This document shows, in pieces, positions 1,794 to 12,357 of a stretch of 13,143 nucleotides of DNA; the stretch's first letter is position 1, and every line of letters starts with the position of its first letter. Source of the DNA: a virus (lineage: Duplodnaviria > Heunggongvirae > Uroviricota > Caudoviricetes); IMG/VR virus record IMGVR_UViG_2917413769_000007, positions 1-13,143 of that record; one strand, 5' to 3'. Made by a program: the position numbers and the translations under genes. The notes under the pieces are model-generated. The model was not told where the DNA came from and did not search any database. It saw only the letters and a list, made by a program, of their open reading frames with translations.

Positions 1794-3182
1794 TTAGAAT
1801 GCGTCGGTGTTGTACTTCTCTGCATACTTCCGTTGCTGTTTTCTGGGTTTTGCTGCCTCCAGTTGAATACGGGTCTTCTCTTTGCCGACGAGCTGATCGA
1901 TTGGCAGAAAGTGACCGTTTTTAAATTCCTGATAAACCACAGTACCAGCAGCCGCAAACCGGCATTTGCCGAGAATGACCTCAGCCACACCAGCCGCCGG
2001 GCTTTCAGGGTTATAAACTTCATCGCGGTACAGAAACAGGATGCTGTCAGCGTCCTGCTCGATGGAACCAGAATCACGCAGGTCTGACATTACCGGGCGA
2101 CGCTGCGCCGCCGGACGCGTATCAACCGCGCGGGAAAGCTGGCTGAGCGCAAAGGTCGGTGTATGTAGCCGCATAGCCATCGTTTTGAGATTGCGGGAAA
2201 TGTGCGCTACGGCAAGGTCGTTACGCTCTGCTTTCGGTTTCTTAATCAGGCCGAGATAGTCGACCATGATCATTGCCAGATGCGGATGGCGTCGCTTGTG
2301 TGTCTCCGCGATAGCGCGGATCTGTTCGACTGTGAGATCGGTCGCATCGACAATCCAGATGTCCCTGTCTGTAAGTTCTCCAATGGCTGCGGTCAATCTC
2401 GCCCAGTCCTCGTCGTACATGTCCTGAGGATTACGCAGGCGAGAAACGGACAAGTTTCCGGCACCAGCTAGCGAACGTTCAACAATCTGAGCCGCCGCCA
2501 TTTCCATGCTGAAAATCAACGCGCCGCCGCCCTTTGCCGTCACACCTTCAACGACGGTAAGCGCAAACTCTGTTTTACCCATGCCTGGGCGACCAGCCAC
2601 GACAATAAGATCCTGCGGGTTAATACTGCCTGTTGCGTTATCAAGATCCGCAATACCAGTCAGCAAATTGCGCGTGGATTCGTCACCGTCCATACGTTTC
2701 TGTACTGTGTCCATGTAAGCGGGCAAAAGCTCGTTGATGTGTACCGGCTGAACGTCGCCACTATCAGCAGTCATGTCCAGCAGCTGCGCCACTGCATTTT
2801 CGACCACTTGATCTCGTTGCTCCTGGTTGGCAGCTTTGCGGATGCCGTCAGCGCCATCCTGCAGAAGTTTCGCCAGCGCGCGGCTGCGCCAGGCCTTAAC
2901 CATCTTCCCGGCATACCCTTTCAGGTTCGGCACCGTTGCGGGGATACGGGATATTTCAGACAGGTCAGCCAGACTTGAACCGCCCAGCGCTTCGCTGATG
3001 AATAACATGTCGATCATGCCGTTAGTCAGCGCCTGTTTTTTTATCTCGCTGAATGTACGGCGATGAAAACCAATGCTGAATGATTCTTCTGGCGTGGAGG
3101 CGATCACGTCAAATGCGTCAGGAGAAGCACCGCCATTCAACAGGCCAGCCAGCACACACGCTTCCAGTTCCTGAGGATTCAT
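1794..3182 (-). CDS. Replicative DNA helicase, DnaB family (phage-encoded)
   Basis: 462-aa ORF; Walker A GRPGMGKT followed by other DnaB-like C-terminal-domain sequence (IVVAGRPGMGKTEFAL, SMEM, MIMVDYLGLI, SQLSR); start ATG overlaps the upstream gene stop as ATGA (3182..3179). Confidence 0.9.
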   Translation of the reverse strand: MNPQELEACVLAGLLNGGASPDAFDVIASTPEESFSIGFHRRTFSEIKKQALTNGMIDMLFISEALGGSSLADLSEISRIPATVPNLKGYAGKMVKAWRSRALAKLLQDGADGIRKAANQEQRDQVVENAVAQLLDMTADSGDVQPVHINELLPAYMDTVQKRMDGDESTRNLLTGIADLDNATGSINPQDLIVVAGRPGMGKTEFALTVVEGVTAKGGGALIFSMEMAAAQIVERSLAGAGNLSVSRLRNPQDMYDEDWARLTAAIGELTDRDIWIVDATDLTVEQIRAIAETHKRRHPHLAMIMVDYLGLIKKPKAERNDLAVAHISRNLKTMAMRLHTPTFALSQLSRAVDTRPAAQRRPVMSDLRDSGSIEQDADSILFLYRDEVYNPESPAAGVAEVILGKCRFAAAGTVVYQEFKNGHFLPIDQLVGKEKTRIQLEAAKPRKQQRKYAEKYNTDAF

Positions 3183-4432
3183 AATGCCTCTTCCCTGGTT
3201 TTACGCAGTGTTTCGGGTTTCATGAGATAATCAAAACTGGCACGCCAGCCGTCGTGATGCTCGCCACCGAAATAAAATTCAGGAGCGGTGTTGCGAAATT
3301 TCTCAAGGTATCCCAGAAACGCGCCTGTAGTTTTATTGATCATGTGGGCTGCGAGGCGTGTAATCATCTGGCGGCGATCGGCGTCCAGGGTTGCAGCAGG
3401 TAGCACATCAGCAAAAATTTCGTTGTAAGCATCGACTACCGCAACCGGATCAATACTGGCTTCGGTGGTGGCCCATGCCTCAGCGTCAGCCAGATAACCA
3501 TCGAAGCGGCATACTCGACAGATATTTGCCGGTTTAGGGAGGCTGTCACCCCGGCGGCGCCAGGTAGCCAGTACCCAACGAATAACTAACTGAACATCAT
3601 CCAGCGTATAGCCGTCTCGGGTAGTCGTAGGGGTCATAAGCGCCAGGAACGGCTTCATGTCACGGCAGCGAGTACCGGTTTGCACATTGTAAAAATCTAG
3701 TGCTTTTTTAGCATCTGCAAGGATTTGTTCGCGGGAAATATTAGCAACCGAGGATGTTTCTGGATGCGCACCAATCACAGTGATCCCGTCAAATTCGTAG
3801 CGTTCTGTAATTACGCCATCTCTGACCAGAATAAAGCCATCACTAAGCTGTTTTAATTTTGTTATGGATTTATCCCGCACGTTGATTCGATCAATTTCAA
3901 TACCGCATTGTTCACCATCGCTTCCAGTTACTAGTAAATCAACGCGGCCTCTGCGACCGTTACCACGATCAGCTACCGGGTATTCGCGCTGGCAGTCAAA
4001 GCCTGCACCAACAATCGCAGACTCAACAGCATCGTGAAGCTCACCTGCTTTTTCAAAATCAAATTTACCTTCGAGAAGGGAAATCAGTTGCTCACGCAAT
4101 ACATGTCCGCCAACTCTCCCAACGGGAGATTTAGAGGGATATATATTCTCTGTAGTAATCTCTGTATGAATATTTGCTGGTTTTCCACTTACTTGTCTGG
4201 TGGTTTTCCGCACTCCAGTATGTGTTTTTTCCGCATTCTTGTTTGCGGCTATAAGTACCTGATATAAAAACGTCATTATCAACCTTGTAGAAAAGTCGAG
4301 CAGGAACACCTTTTCGTTTTTCCAGCAGTACACCAATTGAGCGAAGTTTTTTACGCGCCCCTTCCTGCTCATAGCGAGAAAGGCCTGTTTCTTCTTCCCA
4401 TTCTTCTTGGGTTTTATATACCCACCCGTCAT
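3179..4432 (-). CDS. Replication initiator (O-like), downstream frame: central nuclease-fold-like segment plus conserved phage replication C-terminal domain
   Basis: C-terminal 170 aa (GYTLDDVQLVIRWVLATWRRRGD...EFYFGGEHHDGWRASFDYL) resemble the conserved C-terminal domain of phage replication initiators, by recollection. The first ~50 codons of the tracked ORF are out-of-frame translation of the N-terminal domain; likely continuation of 4131..4556 across a frameshift. Confidence 0.65.
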   Translation of the reverse strand: MTGGYIKPKKNGKKKQAFLAMSRKGRVKNFAQLVYCWKNEKVFLLDFSTRLIMTFLYQVLIAANKNAEKTHTGVRKTTRQVSGKPANIHTEITTENIYPSKSPVGRVGGHVLREQLISLLEGKFDFEKAGELHDAVESAIVGAGFDCQREYPVADRGNGRRGRVDLLVTGSDGEQCGIEIDRINVRDKSITKLKQLSDGFILVRDGVITERYEFDGITVIGAHPETSSVANISREQILADAKKALDFYNVQTGTRCRDMKPFLALMTPTTTRDGYTLDDVQLVIRWVLATWRRRGDSLPKPANICRVCRFDGYLADAEAWATTEASIDPVAVVDAYNEIFADVLPAATLDADRRQMITRLAAHMINKTTGAFLGYLEKFRNTAPEFYFGGEHHDGWRASFDYLMKPETLRKTREEAL

Positions 4433-4556
4433 CGTCGGATCGGTTAGTCCAGTAGGTCATTTGTGAAAGAAAAAGCGAGGCAGTAACACCAATATTCAGG
4501 CGAATAAAACTACGCTGGAAGGCGATCGGCCTGTCGAGTAGTGGGAGTATATTCAT
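4131..4556 (-). CDS. Replication initiator (O-like), N-terminal replisome-organizer/DNA-binding domain (upstream frame)
   Basis: Motif MTYWTNRSDDDGWVYKTQEEWEEETGLSRYEQEGARKKLRSIGVLLEKRKGVPARLFYKVD, typical of phage replisome-organizer N-domains by recollection; ATG at 4556..4554 sits 2 nt after the upstream gene's stop; sequence degrades after FYKVD. Confidence 0.65.
   Translation of the reverse strand: MNILPLLDRPIAFQRSFIRLNIGVTASLFLSQMTYWTNRSDDDGWVYKTQEEWEEETGLSRYEQEGARKKLRSIGVLLEKRKGVPARLFYKVDNDVFISGTYSRKQECGKNTYWSAENHQTSKWKTSKYSYRDYYREYISL
4147..4235. repeat. Candidate replication-origin iterons inside the O-like gene
   Basis: Direct repeats GGTTTTCCACT (4179..4189), GGTTTTCCGCAC (4202..4213), TTTTTCCGCAT (4226..4236) at about 23-bp spacing, plus TCTCTGTA twice (4147..4154, 4159..4166), next to an AT-rich stretch (4255..4280). 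Confidence 0.4.
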
Positions 4557-4558
4557 GA

Positions 4559-4783
4559 TCAAATCCCCAGAGTTTCGGCGATTTGACGACATGCCGCCTG
4601 ATATTCCTCAGATGACAATTCCATTTCACGGAGTTCTTCTTTCAGTTTTTCATACTGCGCCCAGATAGATAGCGCAGCTGCGCGACGGCCTTCGAAAATA
4701 TCTTCGATATCATCCAGGGTGGCTGGCACCCCGTTTAGTCGAAATCCGTTCCGCCATGTAATGCGGTCGATTGAAGTCAGCAT
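4559..4783 (-). CDS. Hypothetical small protein (74 aa) between the YdaT-like and O-like genes
   Basis: ATG at 4783..4781 preceded by GAGGAAAGACCAAT (complement of 4787..4797); product MLTSIDRITWRNGFRLNGVPATLDDIEDIF...; no family recognised. Confidence 0.6.
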   Translation of the reverse strand: MLTSIDRITWRNGFRLNGVPATLDDIEDIFEGRRAAALSIWAQYEKLKEELREMELSSEEYQAACRQIAETLGI

Positions 4784-4805
4784 ATTGGTCTTTCCTCGAT
4801 ACAAG

Positions 4806-5252
4806 TTAAACGCTGGTCAGGCGCTGTGTTTCCTGTATGGCTTGTAATGCCTGCGCTATACGCTGGGGTCGATCCCTTGCTTCAAGCAACAGAGCAATAA
4901 TCGCCGCGGCAAAATCACGAATCGCAATGCAAATTAACTGCTGAGTGGTCATTCCCAGCTGTGCATATCGTTCCGCAGGCAACGCAGCTTCCATCGCCAT
5001 GGCCAGCGCTTTCGTTTTGATTCTTGCCGCTTTCGTCTCACCACGTAGCCAGCGAAAAATCTGCTGCCGGTTGTTGTTGATAGCCCGCCAGTCAGCATTA
5101 CCTTTCGAATCCTCCATCGGGTGAAGTTTTACGTAGCTGGTATTGCCACCCATTCGAAACCACATGCGAGTGATCTCAATAGCAACATGTTCCTGGCCAC
5201 GCTCAGCAGCCCAGTTGAAGATTTCTCTTTTCAGTTCGTCGAGGTTTTCCAC
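4806..5252 (-). CDS. ydaT: YdaT-like protein (Rac-prophage YdaT family)
   Basis: 148-aa ORF with GTG start and AGGAG 10 nt upstream; segment WRAINNNRQQIFRWLRGETKAARIKTKAL matches my recollection of YdaT; located directly downstream of the Cro-like gene as in Rac. Confidence 0.7.
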   Translation of the reverse strand: MENLDELKREIFNWAAERGQEHVAIEITRMWFRMGGNTSYVKLHPMEDSKGNADWRAINNNRQQIFRWLRGETKAARIKTKALAMAMEAALPAERYAQLGMTTQQLICIAIRDFAAAIIALLLEARDRPQRIAQALQAIQETQRLTSV

Positions 5253-5316: not shown

Positions 5317-5517
5317 TTAAGCTGCAGTTGTGTTGTTCGGTTCCAGATAAAATTCGGGGTCATATTTCAAAGCCCCATCAGTAACACGATCCAACCTTGC
5401 AGCTCGGCGCTCAGGTATCACATTTCCCCAGCGAGATACTGCTGGAAGTGAAACTCCTGCGGCTCGAGCCAGCTTTGTGGCGCTCCCAAAGAACGCTAAA
5501 GCATCGTTTTTAAACAT
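5317..5517 (-). CDS. dicC: Cro-like HTH regulator, DicC/YdaS family
   Basis: 66 aa, MFKNDALAFFGSATKLARAAGVSLPAVSRWGNVIPERRAARLDRVTDGALKYDP, matches DicC/YdaS pattern from memory; divergent from the repressor gene; SD GGAG 7 nt upstream of ATG. Confidence 0.8.
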   Translation of the reverse strand: MFKNDALAFFGSATKLARAAGVSLPAVSRWGNVIPERRAARLDRVTDGALKYDPEFYLEPNNTTAA

Positions 5518-5598
5518 TGCCGATCTCCATTTTGTTAACTTTAAGAAACAAAATTACGAGTTAAAGAAAATTAAGTCAAGTAAATTTATATTAACTAC
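5518..5598. promoter_or_regulatory. Divergent promoter/operator region of the immunity switch
   Basis: 81-bp AT-rich intergenic region between divergent repressor and cro-like genes; minus-strand -35 TTGACT (complement of 5574..5579); operator-like 18-mer GTTAACTTTAAGAAACAA at 5534..5551 with flanking inverted repeat TTTGTT/AACAAA. Confidence 0.5.
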
Positions 5599-6009
5599 AT
5601 GAACAAAATCAGCCCTGGCGAGCGCATTAAAAAGCGACGTAAAGAACTCAACCTAACTCAGCGTGAAGTCGCAAAACTCGCGCAGGTATCGCACGTCACA
5701 ATCTCTAAATGGGAAAACGATGACAACGAGCCTCAGGGCAGGAACTTGTTCCAGTTGAGTCAGGCCCTGCAATGTTCACCCACCTGGATTTTATACGGGG
5801 ACGAAGACAAACAGCCCGAGCCTCCAGCAGTATCTGAAGAAGATAAGATCACATTAGATGAGCTTGAAGAGCAGCTACTCGAGCTTTTCAGGGCACTACC
5901 CAGTTCAGAAAAAGAACGCCATTTAACTGAGCTTCGCGGAAAAGTGGACGATTTTAATCGTCTGTTTTACGAATTGCTCCAAGCAAGAAAAACCTCCAAG
6001 AAAAAATAA
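5599..6009 (+). CDS. dicA: HTH (XRE-family) repressor, DicA-like
   Basis: 136 aa; HTH segment LTQREVAKLAQVSHVTISKWEN; LQCSPTWILYGDEDKQP and LLELFRALPSSEKE match my recollection of E. coli DicA; no peptidase S24 domain. Confidence 0.9.
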   Translation: MNKISPGERIKKRRKELNLTQREVAKLAQVSHVTISKWENDDNEPQGRNLFQLSQALQCSPTWILYGDEDKQPEPPAVSEEDKITLDELEEQLLELFRALPSSEKERHLTELRGKVDDFNRLFYELLQARKTSKKK

Positions 6010-6045
6010 ATCCATTAAAATCAAATAAATGGATGAGTGTCGCCC

Positions 6046-6110
6046 TTTTATTTAACTTTTATAAACAAATTTATGTTGACTGATAATTTAACCTTTATTA
6101 AATTAACTTC
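6046..6110 (+). promoter_or_regulatory. Candidate early-left promoter with second operator copy
   Basis: TTTAACTTTTATAAACAA (6051..6068) matches the 5534..5551 operator-like 18-mer at 15/18 positions; followed by TTGACT (6076..6081), a 17-nt spacer and TAAATT (6099..6104). Confidence 0.4.
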
Positions 6111-6912: not shown

Positions 6913-7111
6913 TTCACACAGTTACGATTTTACCGTTGTGACTGAGTCTCCAGACGGAGAGGCCAAACCCACAATGTGACACCAGGGAAAGACCGAAGGA
7001 AGTACAACGCCTGACCAGCGTAAACCGAGCATGACCAGCTCTGGCACCGGGGAAGACCGGAAGAGGAAAGACCTGATGGCCTCACCAGCCTGACTGCCGG
7101 GAAAGACCGGC

Positions 7112-7148
7112 ACCCTTTAGATGGCAAAAGGCCCGCACAAGGCGGGCC
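7112..7148 (+). promoter_or_regulatory. nut-like element: boxA-like CCCTTTAG plus boxB-like hairpin
   Basis: CCCTTTA (7113..7119) resembles boxA CGCTCTTTA; 11 nt later a perfect 7-bp GC stem GGCCCGC/GCGGGCC with 5-nt loop ACAAG (7130..7148), not followed by a U tract. Confidence 0.25.
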
Positions 7149-7276
7149 AGTTACCCCGGGCGGCGACCAAACCACCCGGATTGTTCCGCAGGGGACCAAC
7201 CCTGCGGAGAGGAAAGACCAATGCAGGACAGAGCCAACACTGATCGGCTCTGAGTATATATCACTAAGGAGCCGCT

Positions 7277-7600
7277 ATGGAAGCGCTAACCATCCCCGTA
7301 AAGCTGTACATCCATTACAACGCCAACACTTTCTCTCAGGAAAAAATCATTGTCGCCACCTGTGACATGTCACGTAGTTTTCCAGATCAATATGTCTTGC
7401 TGGAAACGCGCAATATATCCATCGATGTAAACCAACCAGAGCCATTCGACATTATTGCTCTGCAGGTCGACCAGTTGCGTGACCAGAAAGAGAAAATCGC
7501 AACTTTGGCGCAAAGTCAGATAGCCCAGGTTGACGACAAAATACAGCAACTGCTCTGTATTGATCACTCACCTGTTCAGGAAAGCGACATCCCATTTTGA
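7277..7600 (+). CDS. Hypothetical protein (107 aa) immediately upstream of the annealing-protein gene
   Basis: Strong SD TAAGGAG 6 nt upstream of ATG; coding-like acidic protein; no family recognised. Confidence 0.65.
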   Translation: MEALTIPVKLYIHYNANTFSQEKIIVATCDMSRSFPDQYVLLETRNISIDVNQPEPFDIIALQVDQLRDQKEKIATLAQSQIAQVDDKIQQLLCIDHSPVQESDIPF

Positions 7601-12212: not shown

Positions 12213-12357
12213 GTCCATTTTTCAGATATGGTCGGGTAGCGCGTATACCGAAAAACAGCCGAAAGGTTAAGGATACGGGCCGACTTTGCACGGTGTTCAA
12301 GTACCTGACCGCCCTGCTGAACACAGGGCTATCTGAACAAATGCAAAGGACATAAAA

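What the first reader, a model, noticed from the sequence alone, without database searches (positions are those of the whole stretch)
4147..4280. Iteron-like direct repeats and AT-rich tract inside the initiator gene (candidate origin)
Three copies of GGTTTTCC(A/G)C / TTTTCCGCA at about 23-bp spacing (4179..4236), two copies of TCTCTGTA (4147..4166) and an adjacent AT-rich tract reproduce the lambda ori layout of initiator-binding iterons inside the O gene. This lies in the linker region of the O-like gene and overlaps the frameshift site.
Basis: partly seen in the sequence, partly recalled or inferred. Interest (0 to 1): 0.4.

Follow-up and report, generated by a model that had tools for sequence, protein, structure and literature searches.

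The report
Prophage replication origin inside initiator gene
The repeats are real and are most likely the replication origin of a lambda-like prophage, sitting inside its own initiator gene as in phage lambda; this is a well-known arrangement seen here in a less-studied initiator family, and the initiator gene in this strain is broken by one extra base.

Summary
On the gene (minus) strand there are three copies of KGYGGAAAA(M)C at an exact 23-bp period (cores at 4232, 4209, 4186). They are followed by two TACAGAGAnTAy 12-mers (4143-4166) in a 25% GC tract, then an imperfect palindrome (4107-4137). This three-copy 23-bp periodicity is the strongest in the whole window and exceeds all 200 simulated sequences.

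The element lies just after the winged-helix N-domain of a RepO-like initiator (4556..3179, minus), which is followed by a DnaB-type helicase gene.

Comparative evidence for a cis-acting DNA element is strong:
- In 22 distinct homologues, third-codon-position variation collapses only over gene nt 301-450.
- The three repeats fall in three different codon phases.
- In 92 distinct relatives the iteron sequence differs, but the 23-bp period, the position and the downstream CAGAGA 12-mers persist.

Most likely this is a lambda-type origin: iterons, an unwinding element and a palindrome. The protein is not a sequence member of the lambda O family. The initiator gene here carries an extra A in an A5 run (4266-4270), which 46 of the 47 fetched homologues with a readable gene lack, so the origin may be orphaned or the base may be a sequencing error. 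This is a new member of a known kind and of modest interest. Function was not tested experimentally.

The parts
3179..4556 (-). RepO-like replication initiator gene, interrupted by a +1 base. Removing one base gives a 458-aa product: N-terminal winged helix, origin-encoding linker, an inserted domain of about 125 aa, and a conserved C-terminal domain.
   Evidence: ORFs 4131-4592(-) and 3179-4432(-) overlap in different frames. The repaired translation matches PHROG 1347 over residues 1-458 (E 1.5e-208) and 'replication initiation O-like' families. 46 of the 47 fetched homologues with a readable gene are open through this site; most are 330 or 455-458 aa, and the rest range from 158 to 429 aa.
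4272..4556 (-). Coding region of the N-terminal domain (aa 1-95), the predicted winged-helix DNA-binding domain.
   Evidence: AlphaFold2 with a 24-sequence alignment gives pLDDT 83.3. The topology is H-H-H, short strand, H50-57, H61-73, beta-hairpin 77-92. The best solved matches are N-terminal domains of plasmid initiators (4pql, 4pt7; 5kbj is a Rep-DNA complex) and MarR-type winged helices, with E about 2.5e-3 and TM 0.57.
4266..4270 (.). A5 (T5 on the gene strand) homopolymer carrying the extra base that breaks the initiator reading frame.
   Evidence: Alignment with the intact E. coli homologue shows GACGTTTTTATATC here against AACG-TTTTATATC there. Deleting one base restores a full-length protein. 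All homologues that retain this stretch have four.
4250..4279 (.). AT-rich tract on the upstream side of the iterons (23% GC).
4222..4235 (-). Iteron 1, TGCGGAAAAAACAC. Most relatives have TGCGGAAAAACCAC.
   Evidence: It is read as A-E-K.
4199..4212 (-). Iteron 2, TGCGGAAAACCACC.
   Evidence: It lies 23 bp from iteron 1 and is read as (V)R-K-T, a different codon phase.
4176..4189 (-). Iteron 3, AGTGGAAAACCAGC.
   Evidence: It lies 23 bp from iteron 2 and is read as G-K-P, the third codon phase.
4143..4166 (-). Two tandem 12-mers, TACAGAGATTAC and TACAGAGAATAT. This is the family-wide conserved CAGAGAnTAC element and the candidate DNA-unwinding or loading element.
   Evidence: The element is present in nearly every relative, 2-4 copies at mostly 12-bp spacing. 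At least 119 viral contigs carry the exact pair, 99 of 122 in ORFs with this N-domain. Codon-choice tests show the constraint is on the DNA. Third-position entropy is 0.00 over gene nt 391-420.
4139..4178 (.). AT-rich tract (25% GC) containing the 12-mers. It is among the least stable 40-bp duplexes in the window; the less stable ones listed lie at 447-533 and 5560-6090, and those at 5560 and 6050 fall between ORFs.
4107..4137 (.). Imperfect inverted repeat (14-nt arms, 79% complementary, 3-nt spacer) bounding the AT-rich tract.
   Evidence: I6. The DNA fold is -7.6 kcal/mol, z = -2.2. Relatives have different palindromes at the same place, e.g. CCCCCAGGAGGGGG. Perfect stems of 6 bp or more occur in 47/83 relatives against 57/415 control frames, p = 2e-11.
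4106..4255 (-). Extent of the zone where homologues show suppressed synonymous-site variation (gene nt 301-450), mapped onto the window.
1794..3182 (-). DnaB-type replicative helicase gene. Its start overlaps the initiator stop. It is the presumed partner loaded at the origin.
   Evidence: Pfam DnaB_C 1.1e-70 and DnaB N-terminal domain 3.8e-08. Sources name it 'replicative DNA helicase'.

Best explanation
The segment from about 4106 to 4255 is most likely the cis-acting replication origin of a lambdoid-type prophage of Escherichia sp. E1130. It is embedded in the linker-coding part of the prophage's own initiator gene.

Proposed mechanism, by analogy with lambda ori/O, SPP1 oriL/gp38 and RepA_N plasmids:
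1. The winged-helix N-domain of the RepO-like initiator binds the three 23-bp-phased iterons (KGYGGAAAACCAVC) and forms an oligomeric nucleoprotein complex.
2. This destabilises the adjacent 25% GC tract with its tandem CAGAGAnTAC 12-mers, which is bounded by a palindrome.
3. The initiator's C-terminal domain recruits the phage-encoded DnaB-type helicase from the next gene.

Shown here:
- the repeats and their geometry;
- DNA-level purifying selection that is independent of the reading frame;
- conservation of this architecture, with varying iteron sequence, across the initiator family;
- the winged-helix fold.

Inferred only:
- which repeat class the N-domain binds;
- that melting occurs at the 12-mers;
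- helicase recruitment.

In this particular strain the initiator gene is frameshifted. The origin could therefore fire only if the extra base is a sequencing error or if an intact initiator is supplied in trans.
For: 1. Gene context. The order is cI-like repressor, Cro, YdaT-like, initiator, DnaB helicase. The initiator is identified by PHROG 1347/9773/428 and by the annotation 'replication protein RepO' of a homologue that is 88.9% identical at the DNA level over the matched part.

2. Periodicity. The three-copy 23-bp periodicity is the strongest in the window and beyond all 200 simulations.

3. Frame independence. 23 is not a multiple of 3, so the three GGAAAA cores are read in three phases (AEK / RKT / GKP). 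The repeat exists in DNA, not in the peptide.

4. Synonymous-site constraint. In 22 distinct 330-aa homologues, third-position entropy is 0.32-0.97 bits in every 30-nt block except the first (nt 1-30, 0.13) and gene nt 301-420 (0.00-0.22). The ratio to positions 1 and 2 falls from 2.7-64 to between 0 and 2.2 over nt 271-480 (at or below about 1 over most of nt 301-450). The same holds for 31 sequences over the first 420 nt.

5. Position in distant relatives. In 11 of 15 distantly related loci (32-60% identity in the N-domain), the highest short-range direct-repeat density of the whole 5-6 kb locus falls at gene nt 271-513. In L044 both the repeat cluster and the CAGAGA cluster are displaced together to nt 660-780.

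6. Family-wide period. In 92 distinct relatives, the best repeated 9-mer upstream of the CAGAGA pair recurs at 23 bp in 157 spacings, at 22-24 bp in 203, and at 46 bp in 32. Most have 3-5 copies (range 2-6), and there are dozens of different core sequences.

7. CAGAGA element. With the motif defined at the peptide level, Glu is GAG in 26/28 cases against 185/372 elsewhere (p = 5e-6). The preceding Thr is ACA in 15/16 against 80/353 (p = 8e-9). The preceding residue varies (T/A/S/Q/P) while the CAGAGA core is mostly retained.

8. Flanks. There are AT-rich flanks and an enriched downstream palindrome.

9. Mosaic boundary. DNA homology to the E. coli relative stops right after the AT-rich element, so the N-domain and the origin are inherited as one module.

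10. Fold. The N-domain model is a winged helix closest to iteron-binding plasmid initiator N-domains.

11. Precedent. Origins inside the initiator gene are experimentally established for lambda and Stx phages (PMC7466680; lambda annotation) and for SPP1 (PMC6316719).
Against: - There is no experimental evidence for this family. I found no paper that maps its origin.
- The window has only three iterons, and the first has drifted (AAAAAACAC instead of AAAAACCAC).
- The N-domain is not detectably homologous to lambda O.
- The N-domain's recognition helix is highly conserved across relatives whose iterons differ. This leaves open whether it reads the iterons or the conserved CAGAGA 12-mers.
- No DnaA box lies in the region.
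- The initiator is frameshifted here, and the truncated product is recorded from a single contig. Activity in this strain is therefore doubtful.
- Synonymous-site constraint shows that a DNA or RNA-level function exists, but it does not identify that function.
Confidence: 0.8

Rival explanations
1. The repeats come from a low-complexity, Lys/Thr/Glu-rich protein linker. What is conserved is the peptide (for example TENTTE), and the DNA has no cis function.
For: The linker peptide AANKxAEKPHTGxRKTxxQVxGKPAN...TENTTENI is fairly conserved in close relatives. The CAGAGA pair is read in the same phase (T-E) in 116 of 122 occurrences.
Against: - The three iterons are read in three phases and give unrelated tripeptides.
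- Substitutions in this stretch lose codon periodicity: third positions are as constrained as first and second positions.
- The 23-bp period is kept in 92 relatives whose iteron sequences, and hence peptides, differ.
- Within the TExT motif the synonymous choices GAG and ACA are nearly fixed, while the amino acid before Glu changes.
- In L007 the CAGAGA copies are 13 nt apart and are read in different frames.
Confidence: 0.05
2. The element is a cis-acting site with another role: initiator autoregulation or operator, an incompatibility or exclusion site, a packaging or partition site, or an RNA-level signal in the mRNA. It is not where replication starts.
For: Synonymous-site constraint does not say what the function is. 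Iteron arrays in plasmids also serve autoregulation and copy control (own knowledge). An identical 10-mer, GTGGAAAACC, occurs at the start of the YdaT-like gene at 5243-5252.
Against: - The composite layout is that of characterised origins, at the same relative place in the initiator gene as in lambda: phased iterons, then an AT-rich element about 20-25 bp after the last iteron, then a palindrome.
- The element travels strictly with the initiator N-domain.
- No Rfam family matches this region at gathering score.
- The upstream 10-mer recurs in 17 of the 39 sequences scanned (window included), at the YdaT-like gene start in at least 16, where it encodes M-E-N-L, so coding conservation can explain it.
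Confidence: 0.1
3. It is a decayed remnant. The prophage is cryptic, the initiator is a pseudogene, and the repeats are a dead origin with no present function in this strain.
For: The frameshift lies in the A5 run 4266-4270, and 46 of the 47 fetched homologues with a readable gene are open through this site. Iteron 1 carries a substitution relative to the family consensus. Other database relatives show frameshifts at other positions of the same A-run-rich stretch.
Against: A single extra base in a homopolymer is also the commonest sequencing or assembly error. The allele is known from one contig only. The remaining genes of the module, including helicase, Cro, YdaT-like and repressor, are intact ORFs. 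This rival concerns present activity, not what the element is, so it is compatible with the best explanation.
Confidence: 0.4

Closest known systems
Phage lambda ori-lambda within gene O (and Stx phages P27 and 933W with six iterons)
   Same: - The origin lies in the middle of the initiator gene, just after the DNA-binding N-domain.
- Iterons are phased at about two helical turns: lambda 20/24/23 bp at O nt 349-433, here 23/23 bp at nt about 320-385.
- Iterons contain an A-tract between partly symmetric arms: lambda TCCCTCAAAACGAGGGA. The consensus in relatives of the window is TGCGGAAAACCnGCA.
- An adjacent AT-rich tract is followed by a palindrome.
- The gene order is lambdoid.

   Different: - The N-domain shows no detectable sequence homology to lambda O (hhalign probability 0.2%) and has no Pfam Phage_rep_O hit.
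- There are three iterons instead of four to six.
- The AT-rich part is a conserved tandem CAGAGAnTAC 12-mer element rather than a generic A/T run.
- The partner is a phage-encoded DnaB-type helicase, as in P22 (own knowledge), not a lambda P-type loader that hijacks host DnaB.
Bacillus phage SPP1 oriL within gene 38 (origin-binding protein gp38)
   Same: Direct repeats plus an AT-rich unwinding element lie inside the gene of the origin-binding protein that binds them. A phage-encoded DnaB-family helicase follows (PMC6316719).
   Different: The host is Gram-positive and a separate helicase loader (gp39) is present. I did not test sequence relatedness to gp38.
RepA_N-type initiators of staphylococcal multiresistance plasmids (PDB 4pql, 4pt7, 5kbj)
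   Same: These are the best solved structural matches to the modelled N-domain, and 5kbj is a Rep-DNA complex. From my own knowledge, these plasmids carry their iterons inside the rep coding region, and the N-domain binds them.
   Different: The match is only at fold level (E about 2.5e-3, TM 0.57, 16% identity), comparable to MarR-type regulators in the same list. There is no Pfam RepA_N hit. They are plasmid systems, not phage systems.
PHROG 1347 / 9773 / 6493 ('replication initiation O-like', 'DnaD-like helicase loader') phage initiators
   Same: The window protein is a sequence member of this group: 1.5e-208 over its full length for PHROG 1347, and 2.6e-47 for PHROG 9773 over the N-domain and linker. 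Relatives occur in Vibrio, Pseudomonas, Acinetobacter, Salmonella, Stx, Staphylococcus and Flavobacterium phages.
   Different: These are annotation-level families. I found no published origin mapping for them.

Membership tests
Initiator-gene-embedded iteron origin (lambda-type functional class) | Three or more direct repeats, phased at about two helical turns, inside the initiator gene downstream of its DNA-binding domain | tested here: met
   The cores are at 4232/4209/4186, exactly 23 bp apart, at gene nt about 320-385. This is the strongest three-copy periodicity in the window and beyond all 200 simulations.
Initiator-gene-embedded iteron origin (lambda-type functional class) | An AT-rich, easily melted tract next to the iterons | tested here: met
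   4139-4178 is 25% GC (1.4th percentile) and among the least stable 40-bp duplexes in the window.
Initiator-gene-embedded iteron origin (lambda-type functional class) | Selection on the DNA sequence itself, independent of the protein it encodes | tested here: met
   Third-position entropy collapses only over gene nt 301-450 (apart from the first 30-nt block). The repeats fall in three codon phases. The 23-bp period is kept with different iteron sequences in 92 relatives. Codon-choice tests agree.
Initiator-gene-embedded iteron origin (lambda-type functional class) | An inverted repeat beyond the AT-rich tract | tested here: inconclusive
   The window has an imperfect 14-nt-arm repeat at 4107-4137 with fold z = -2.2. 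Across relatives, stems are enriched over control frames (p = 2e-11). Its role is unknown.
Initiator-gene-embedded iteron origin (lambda-type functional class) | The initiator N-domain binds the iterons specifically | not testable with these tools
   This needs EMSA or footprinting. Only the winged-helix fold was shown.
Initiator-gene-embedded iteron origin (lambda-type functional class) | The segment supports replication when initiator and helicase are supplied | not testable with these tools
   This needs a plasmid replication assay. Weak indirect support: relatives occur on 30-60 kb extrachromosomal 'plasmid' records that look like phage-plasmids.
Lambda O protein family (Pfam PF04492 Phage_rep_O) | Sequence or profile similarity to lambda O or its Pfam model | tested here: not met
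   There is no Pfam hit at E <= 1 for the repaired protein or for 17 N-domains. hhalign of the N-domain profile against lambda O gives probability 0.2%.
RepA_N / DnaD-like winged-helix initiators | Homology of the N-terminal domain | tested here: inconclusive
   Fold-level matches to 4pql, 4pt7 and 5kbj have E about 2.5e-3 and TM 0.57. A profile search of PDB sequences found nothing. There is no Pfam hit. PHROG 6493 'DnaD-like helicase loader' matches at 6.9e-17.
PHROG 1347 / 9773 phage replication initiators | A significant full-length profile match | tested here: met
   1.5e-208 over residues 1-458 of the repaired protein; 2.6e-47 for PHROG 9773 over residues 3-134.

The most novel reading that the evidence does not exclude
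The tandem CAGAGAnTAC 12-mers are conserved across an initiator family that spans Enterobacteria, Vibrio, Pseudomonas and Acinetobacter phages. They always sit about 20-25 bp after a strictly 23-bp-phased array of otherwise variable iterons. They may be a sequence-specific origin element: an initiator-recognised single-strand unwinding or helicase-loading signal, comparable to the 13-mers of oriC and RK2 or to DnaA-trios, rather than a generic AT-rich tract. Together with the highly conserved recognition helix, they would define a previously undescribed, widespread origin class.
Probability: 0.3. Interest if true: 0.55.

Novelty: new member of a known kind. Interest (0 to 1): 0.3.

Why it matters
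- It locates the probable replication origin of a widespread but experimentally unstudied family of temperate-phage initiators. Relatives include some Stx-converting phages and phage-plasmids.
- It gives simple sequence rules for finding such origins: variable iterons at a 23-bp period, followed by CAGAGAnTAC 12-mers and a palindrome.
- Such maps are useful for annotating prophages, building phage-derived replicons, interpreting mosaic recombination boundaries, and judging whether a prophage is still replication-competent.
- For general biology it repeats the lambda paradigm and does not change it.

Tried and rejected
- Megablast of the gene against the phage collection found nothing. Only one E. 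coli genome of 5,426 matched, and only over the N-domain plus origin.
- NCBIfam and Pfam gave no family for the initiator.
- Tandem Repeats Finder at minimum score 30 found no array. The default repeat finder split the iterons into two-copy families.
- DnaA boxes: none with one mismatch or fewer within 3900-4600.
- Rfam at gathering score: nothing in the region.
- Single-sequence AlphaFold2 of the N-domain was unusable, pLDDT 54.6. It was replaced by an alignment-based model.
- The profile search of PDB sequences gave only a spurious kinase hit.
- The search for homologous proteins with the 95-aa N-domain returned only 36 short (58-164 aa) proteins. Several of those retrieved are partial or frameshifted fragments, so it served only as an alignment source.
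- Programmed frameshifting was considered and rejected. A +1 shift at GTT TTT A would be needed, there is no plausible slippery site, and 46 of the 47 fetched homologues with a readable gene lack the extra base.
- Literature searches for the CAGAGA element and for origin mapping in non-lambdoid Stx replication modules found nothing relevant.
- The first Glu-codon count inside elements defined by CAGAGA was circular. I redid it with a peptide-level motif definition.
Full report
**What is in the sequence**

The window carries a lambdoid-type immunity and replication module:
- a cI-like HTH repressor (5599-6009, +);
- a P22-Cro-like gene (5317-5517, -);
- a YdaT-family gene (4806-5252, -);
- a small ORF (4559-4804, -);
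- an initiator gene (4556..3179, -);
- a DnaB-type replicative helicase (3182..1794, -).

Exact-sequence look-up places the window in Escherichia sp. E1130.

The initiator is split between two overlapping frames (ORFs 4131-4592 and 3179-4432). Alignment with an intact E. coli homologue annotated 'replication protein RepO' pins the break to one extra T in a T-run on the gene strand. On the plus strand this is the A5 run at 4266-4270. Deleting one base gives a 458-aa protein. That protein matches PHROG 1347 end to end (1.5e-208) and several 'replication initiation O-like' and 'DnaD-like' PHROGs. Of the 47 fetched homologues with a readable gene, 46 are open through this site. Most are 330 aa, or 455-458 aa with the same inserted domain as the window; the rest range from 158 to 429 aa.

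**Checking the observation**

On the gene strand the order is:
- TGCGGAAAAAACAC (4235..4222);
- TGCGGAAAACCACC (4212..4199);
- AGTGGAAAACCAGC (4189..4176);
- TACAGAGATTAC and TACAGAGAATAT (4166..4143), then ATAT;
- an imperfect palindrome, CCCTCTAAATCTCCC-GTT-GGGAGAGTTGGCGG (4137..4107).

The GGAAAA cores are exactly 23 bp apart. I scanned the whole window over periods 15-35 for three-way identity in 14-nt frames. The global maximum is at this site: 9/14 at 4173, period 23. None of 200 Markov simulations reached 9.

The flanks are AT-rich: 25% GC at 4139-4178 and 23% GC at 4250-4279, against a window mean of 48.8%.

The frameshift site is inside the reported interval but about 30 nt upstream of iteron 1.

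**Is it a DNA element or a by-product of the protein?**

Four independent lines point to DNA.

1. Because 23 is not a multiple of 3, the three cores are read in three phases (A-E-K, R-K-T, G-K-P). There is no peptide repeat.

2. In 22 distinct full-length 330-aa homologues, third-codon-position entropy is 0.32-0.97 bits in every 30-nt block except two places: the first block (nt 1-30, 0.13) and gene nt 301-420, where it falls to 0.00-0.22. The ratio of third-position entropy to that of positions 1 and 2 falls from 2.7-64 to between 0 and 2.2 over nt 271-480, and is at or below about 1 over most of nt 301-450 (also with 31 sequences). Mapped to the window, the constrained zone is 4106-4255.

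3. In 11 of 15 distant relatives (N-domain identity 32-60%), the highest density of short-range direct repeats in the whole 5-6 kb locus lies at gene nt 271-513. The repeated sequences differ between clades:
   - TGCGGAAAACCnGCA in the Vibrio phage R20L, Pseudomonas phage CF63a and Escherichia phage SaltyDalty loci;
   - CYAGTTTG in a Vibrio MAG;
   - GGGAAACC in the Stx-phage locus;
   - ATCCGCCAAAC in the Acinetobacter phage locus.

4. In 92 distinct relatives, the best repeated 9-mer upstream of the CAGAGA pair recurs at 23 bp in 157 spacings, at 22-24 bp in 203 and at 46 bp in 32. Most have 3-5 copies (range 2-6), and the last iteron lies mostly about 12-50 bp (commonly 20-25 bp) before the first CAGAGA.

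**The TCTCTGTA repeats**

These are part of a family hallmark, not an incidental repeat.
- CAGAGA clusters (2-4 copies, mostly 12 bp apart) follow the iterons in nearly every relative. In L044 the whole repeat cluster is displaced to gene nt 660-780, and the CAGAGA cluster moves with it.
Of 122 occurrences, 99 lie in ORFs with this N-domain.
- With the motif defined at the peptide level in 17 diverged representatives, Glu is GAG in 26/28 cases against 185/372 elsewhere (p = 5e-6). The preceding Thr is ACA in 15/16 against 80/353 (p = 8e-9). The residue before Glu varies (T/A/S/Q/P) while the CAGAGA core is mostly retained.
- In L007 the copies are 13 nt apart and are read in different frames.
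- A downstream inverted repeat is also enriched across the family.

**The protein**

The N-domain (aa 1-95), modelled with a 24-sequence alignment, has pLDDT 83.3 and a winged-helix topology. Its best solved matches are N-terminal domains of plasmid replication initiators, including a Rep-DNA complex, alongside MarR-type regulators, at fold-level significance only.

It is not a detectable relative of lambda O (hhalign probability 0.2%). No Pfam or NCBIfam model matches it. So it works like lambda O but is not a member of that family.

**Mechanism proposed**

By analogy with lambda and Stx phages (PMC7466680; lambda annotation) and SPP1 oriL/gp38 (PMC6316719):
1. The initiator N-domains occupy the phased iterons.
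2. The adjacent weak duplex carrying the 12-mers opens.
3. The C-terminal domain brings in the phage DnaB-type helicase.

The geometry, the DNA-level constraint and the fold are shown. Binding specificity, the melting site and helicase recruitment are inferred.

One open point remains. The recognition helix is strongly conserved across relatives whose iterons differ: Q64, A67, R68 and L71 are invariant. It is therefore not settled whether the winged helix reads the iterons, the conserved 12-mers, or both.

**State in this strain**

With the extra A, translation would yield the 95-aa N-domain plus a 46-aa out-of-frame tail. This 141-aa product is recorded from one contig only. Either the prophage's initiator is dead and the origin is orphaned, or the base is a homopolymer error. 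These data cannot decide. Other database relatives carry frameshifts at other positions in the same A-run-rich stretch, which suggests that it is indel-prone.

**Comparison and novelty**

Origins embedded in the initiator gene are textbook knowledge. The window adds a member from an initiator family whose origin I could not find described.

The extras are the strict 23-bp phasing with variable iterons and the conserved CAGAGAnTAC 12-mers. They are modestly new and testable.

It is a new member of a known kind, interest about 0.3.

Noticed in passing
window 6930-7230: This stretch lies between the immunity region and the plus-strand operon that starts at 7277. Only short ORFs of odd composition overlap it. 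It holds 5-6 copies of GGRAAGACC(G), for example near 6985, 7050, 7066, 7100 and 7211. It has the highest short-range direct-repeat density in the whole window. There is no Rfam match at gathering score. Its function is unknown; candidates are an antitermination-type RNA or a protein-binding array.
   Followed up: partly
window 12230-12318 (+): Rfam sRNA-Xcc1 (RF02221) matches at 68.3 bits against a gathering score of 53, over the full-length model.
   Followed up: no
window about 3745-4135 (-), aa about 140-270 of the repaired initiator: The window's initiator is the 'long form'. It has an insert of about 125 aa between the origin-encoding linker and the conserved C-terminal domain. The insert is absent from the 330-aa homologues but present in L008, L009, L011 and L041. 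By eye, the motif GRVDLLV...GIEIDRINVRDKSITKLKQLSDGFILVR resembles a PD-(D/E)xK / DUF559-like nuclease fold. Pfam gives no hit.
   Followed up: partly
window 5243-5252 (-): GTGGAAAACC, identical to the core of iteron 3, forms the start of the YdaT-like gene. GGAAAACC recurs upstream of the initiator in 17 of the 39 sequences scanned (window included), at the YdaT-like gene start in at least 16. There it encodes M-E-N-L, so coding conservation may explain it. An extra initiator site, compare lambda's 'ice' signal in cII, is not excluded.
   Followed up: partly
window 4131-4140 versus L001 (alignment, columns about 470 onward): DNA-level homology to the E. coli relative (88.9% over the matched part) ends abruptly just after the AT-rich / 12-mer element. 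The N-domain and origin therefore behave as one exchangeable module, and the origin is a mosaic recombination boundary.
   Followed up: partly
L077, downstream of its CAGAGA element (output): Some relatives continue with CATTCGTCGCAGAATTCTGACGAATCCAGCGACCAGCC. This closely resembles the lambda ori palindrome region TTCGTCAGAGAATTCTGGCGAATCCTCTGACCAGCC. It suggests hybrids that join this N-domain and its iterons to a lambda-O-like distal half, with the junction at the origin.
   Followed up: no
P0003, P0004, P0006, P0024, P0025: Several database relatives of the initiator are truncated by frameshifts at different positions within or next to the origin-encoding stretch, which is rich in A-runs. 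This suggests an indel hotspot, either real decay or homopolymer sequencing error.
   Followed up: no
L044 gene nt 660-780: In this relative the repeat cluster and three CAGAGA 12-mers lie about 350 nt further into the gene than usual. The two have been displaced together, apparently by an insertion after the N-domain.
   Followed up: partly
plasmid records H63-H100: The initiator family also occurs on 30-85 kb records deposited as plasmids (Enterobacter, Acinetobacter, Arsenophonus, Bacillus, Burkholderia). By size these are probably phage-plasmids or extrachromosomal prophages. No small plasmid carrying only this rep gene was seen.
   Followed up: no
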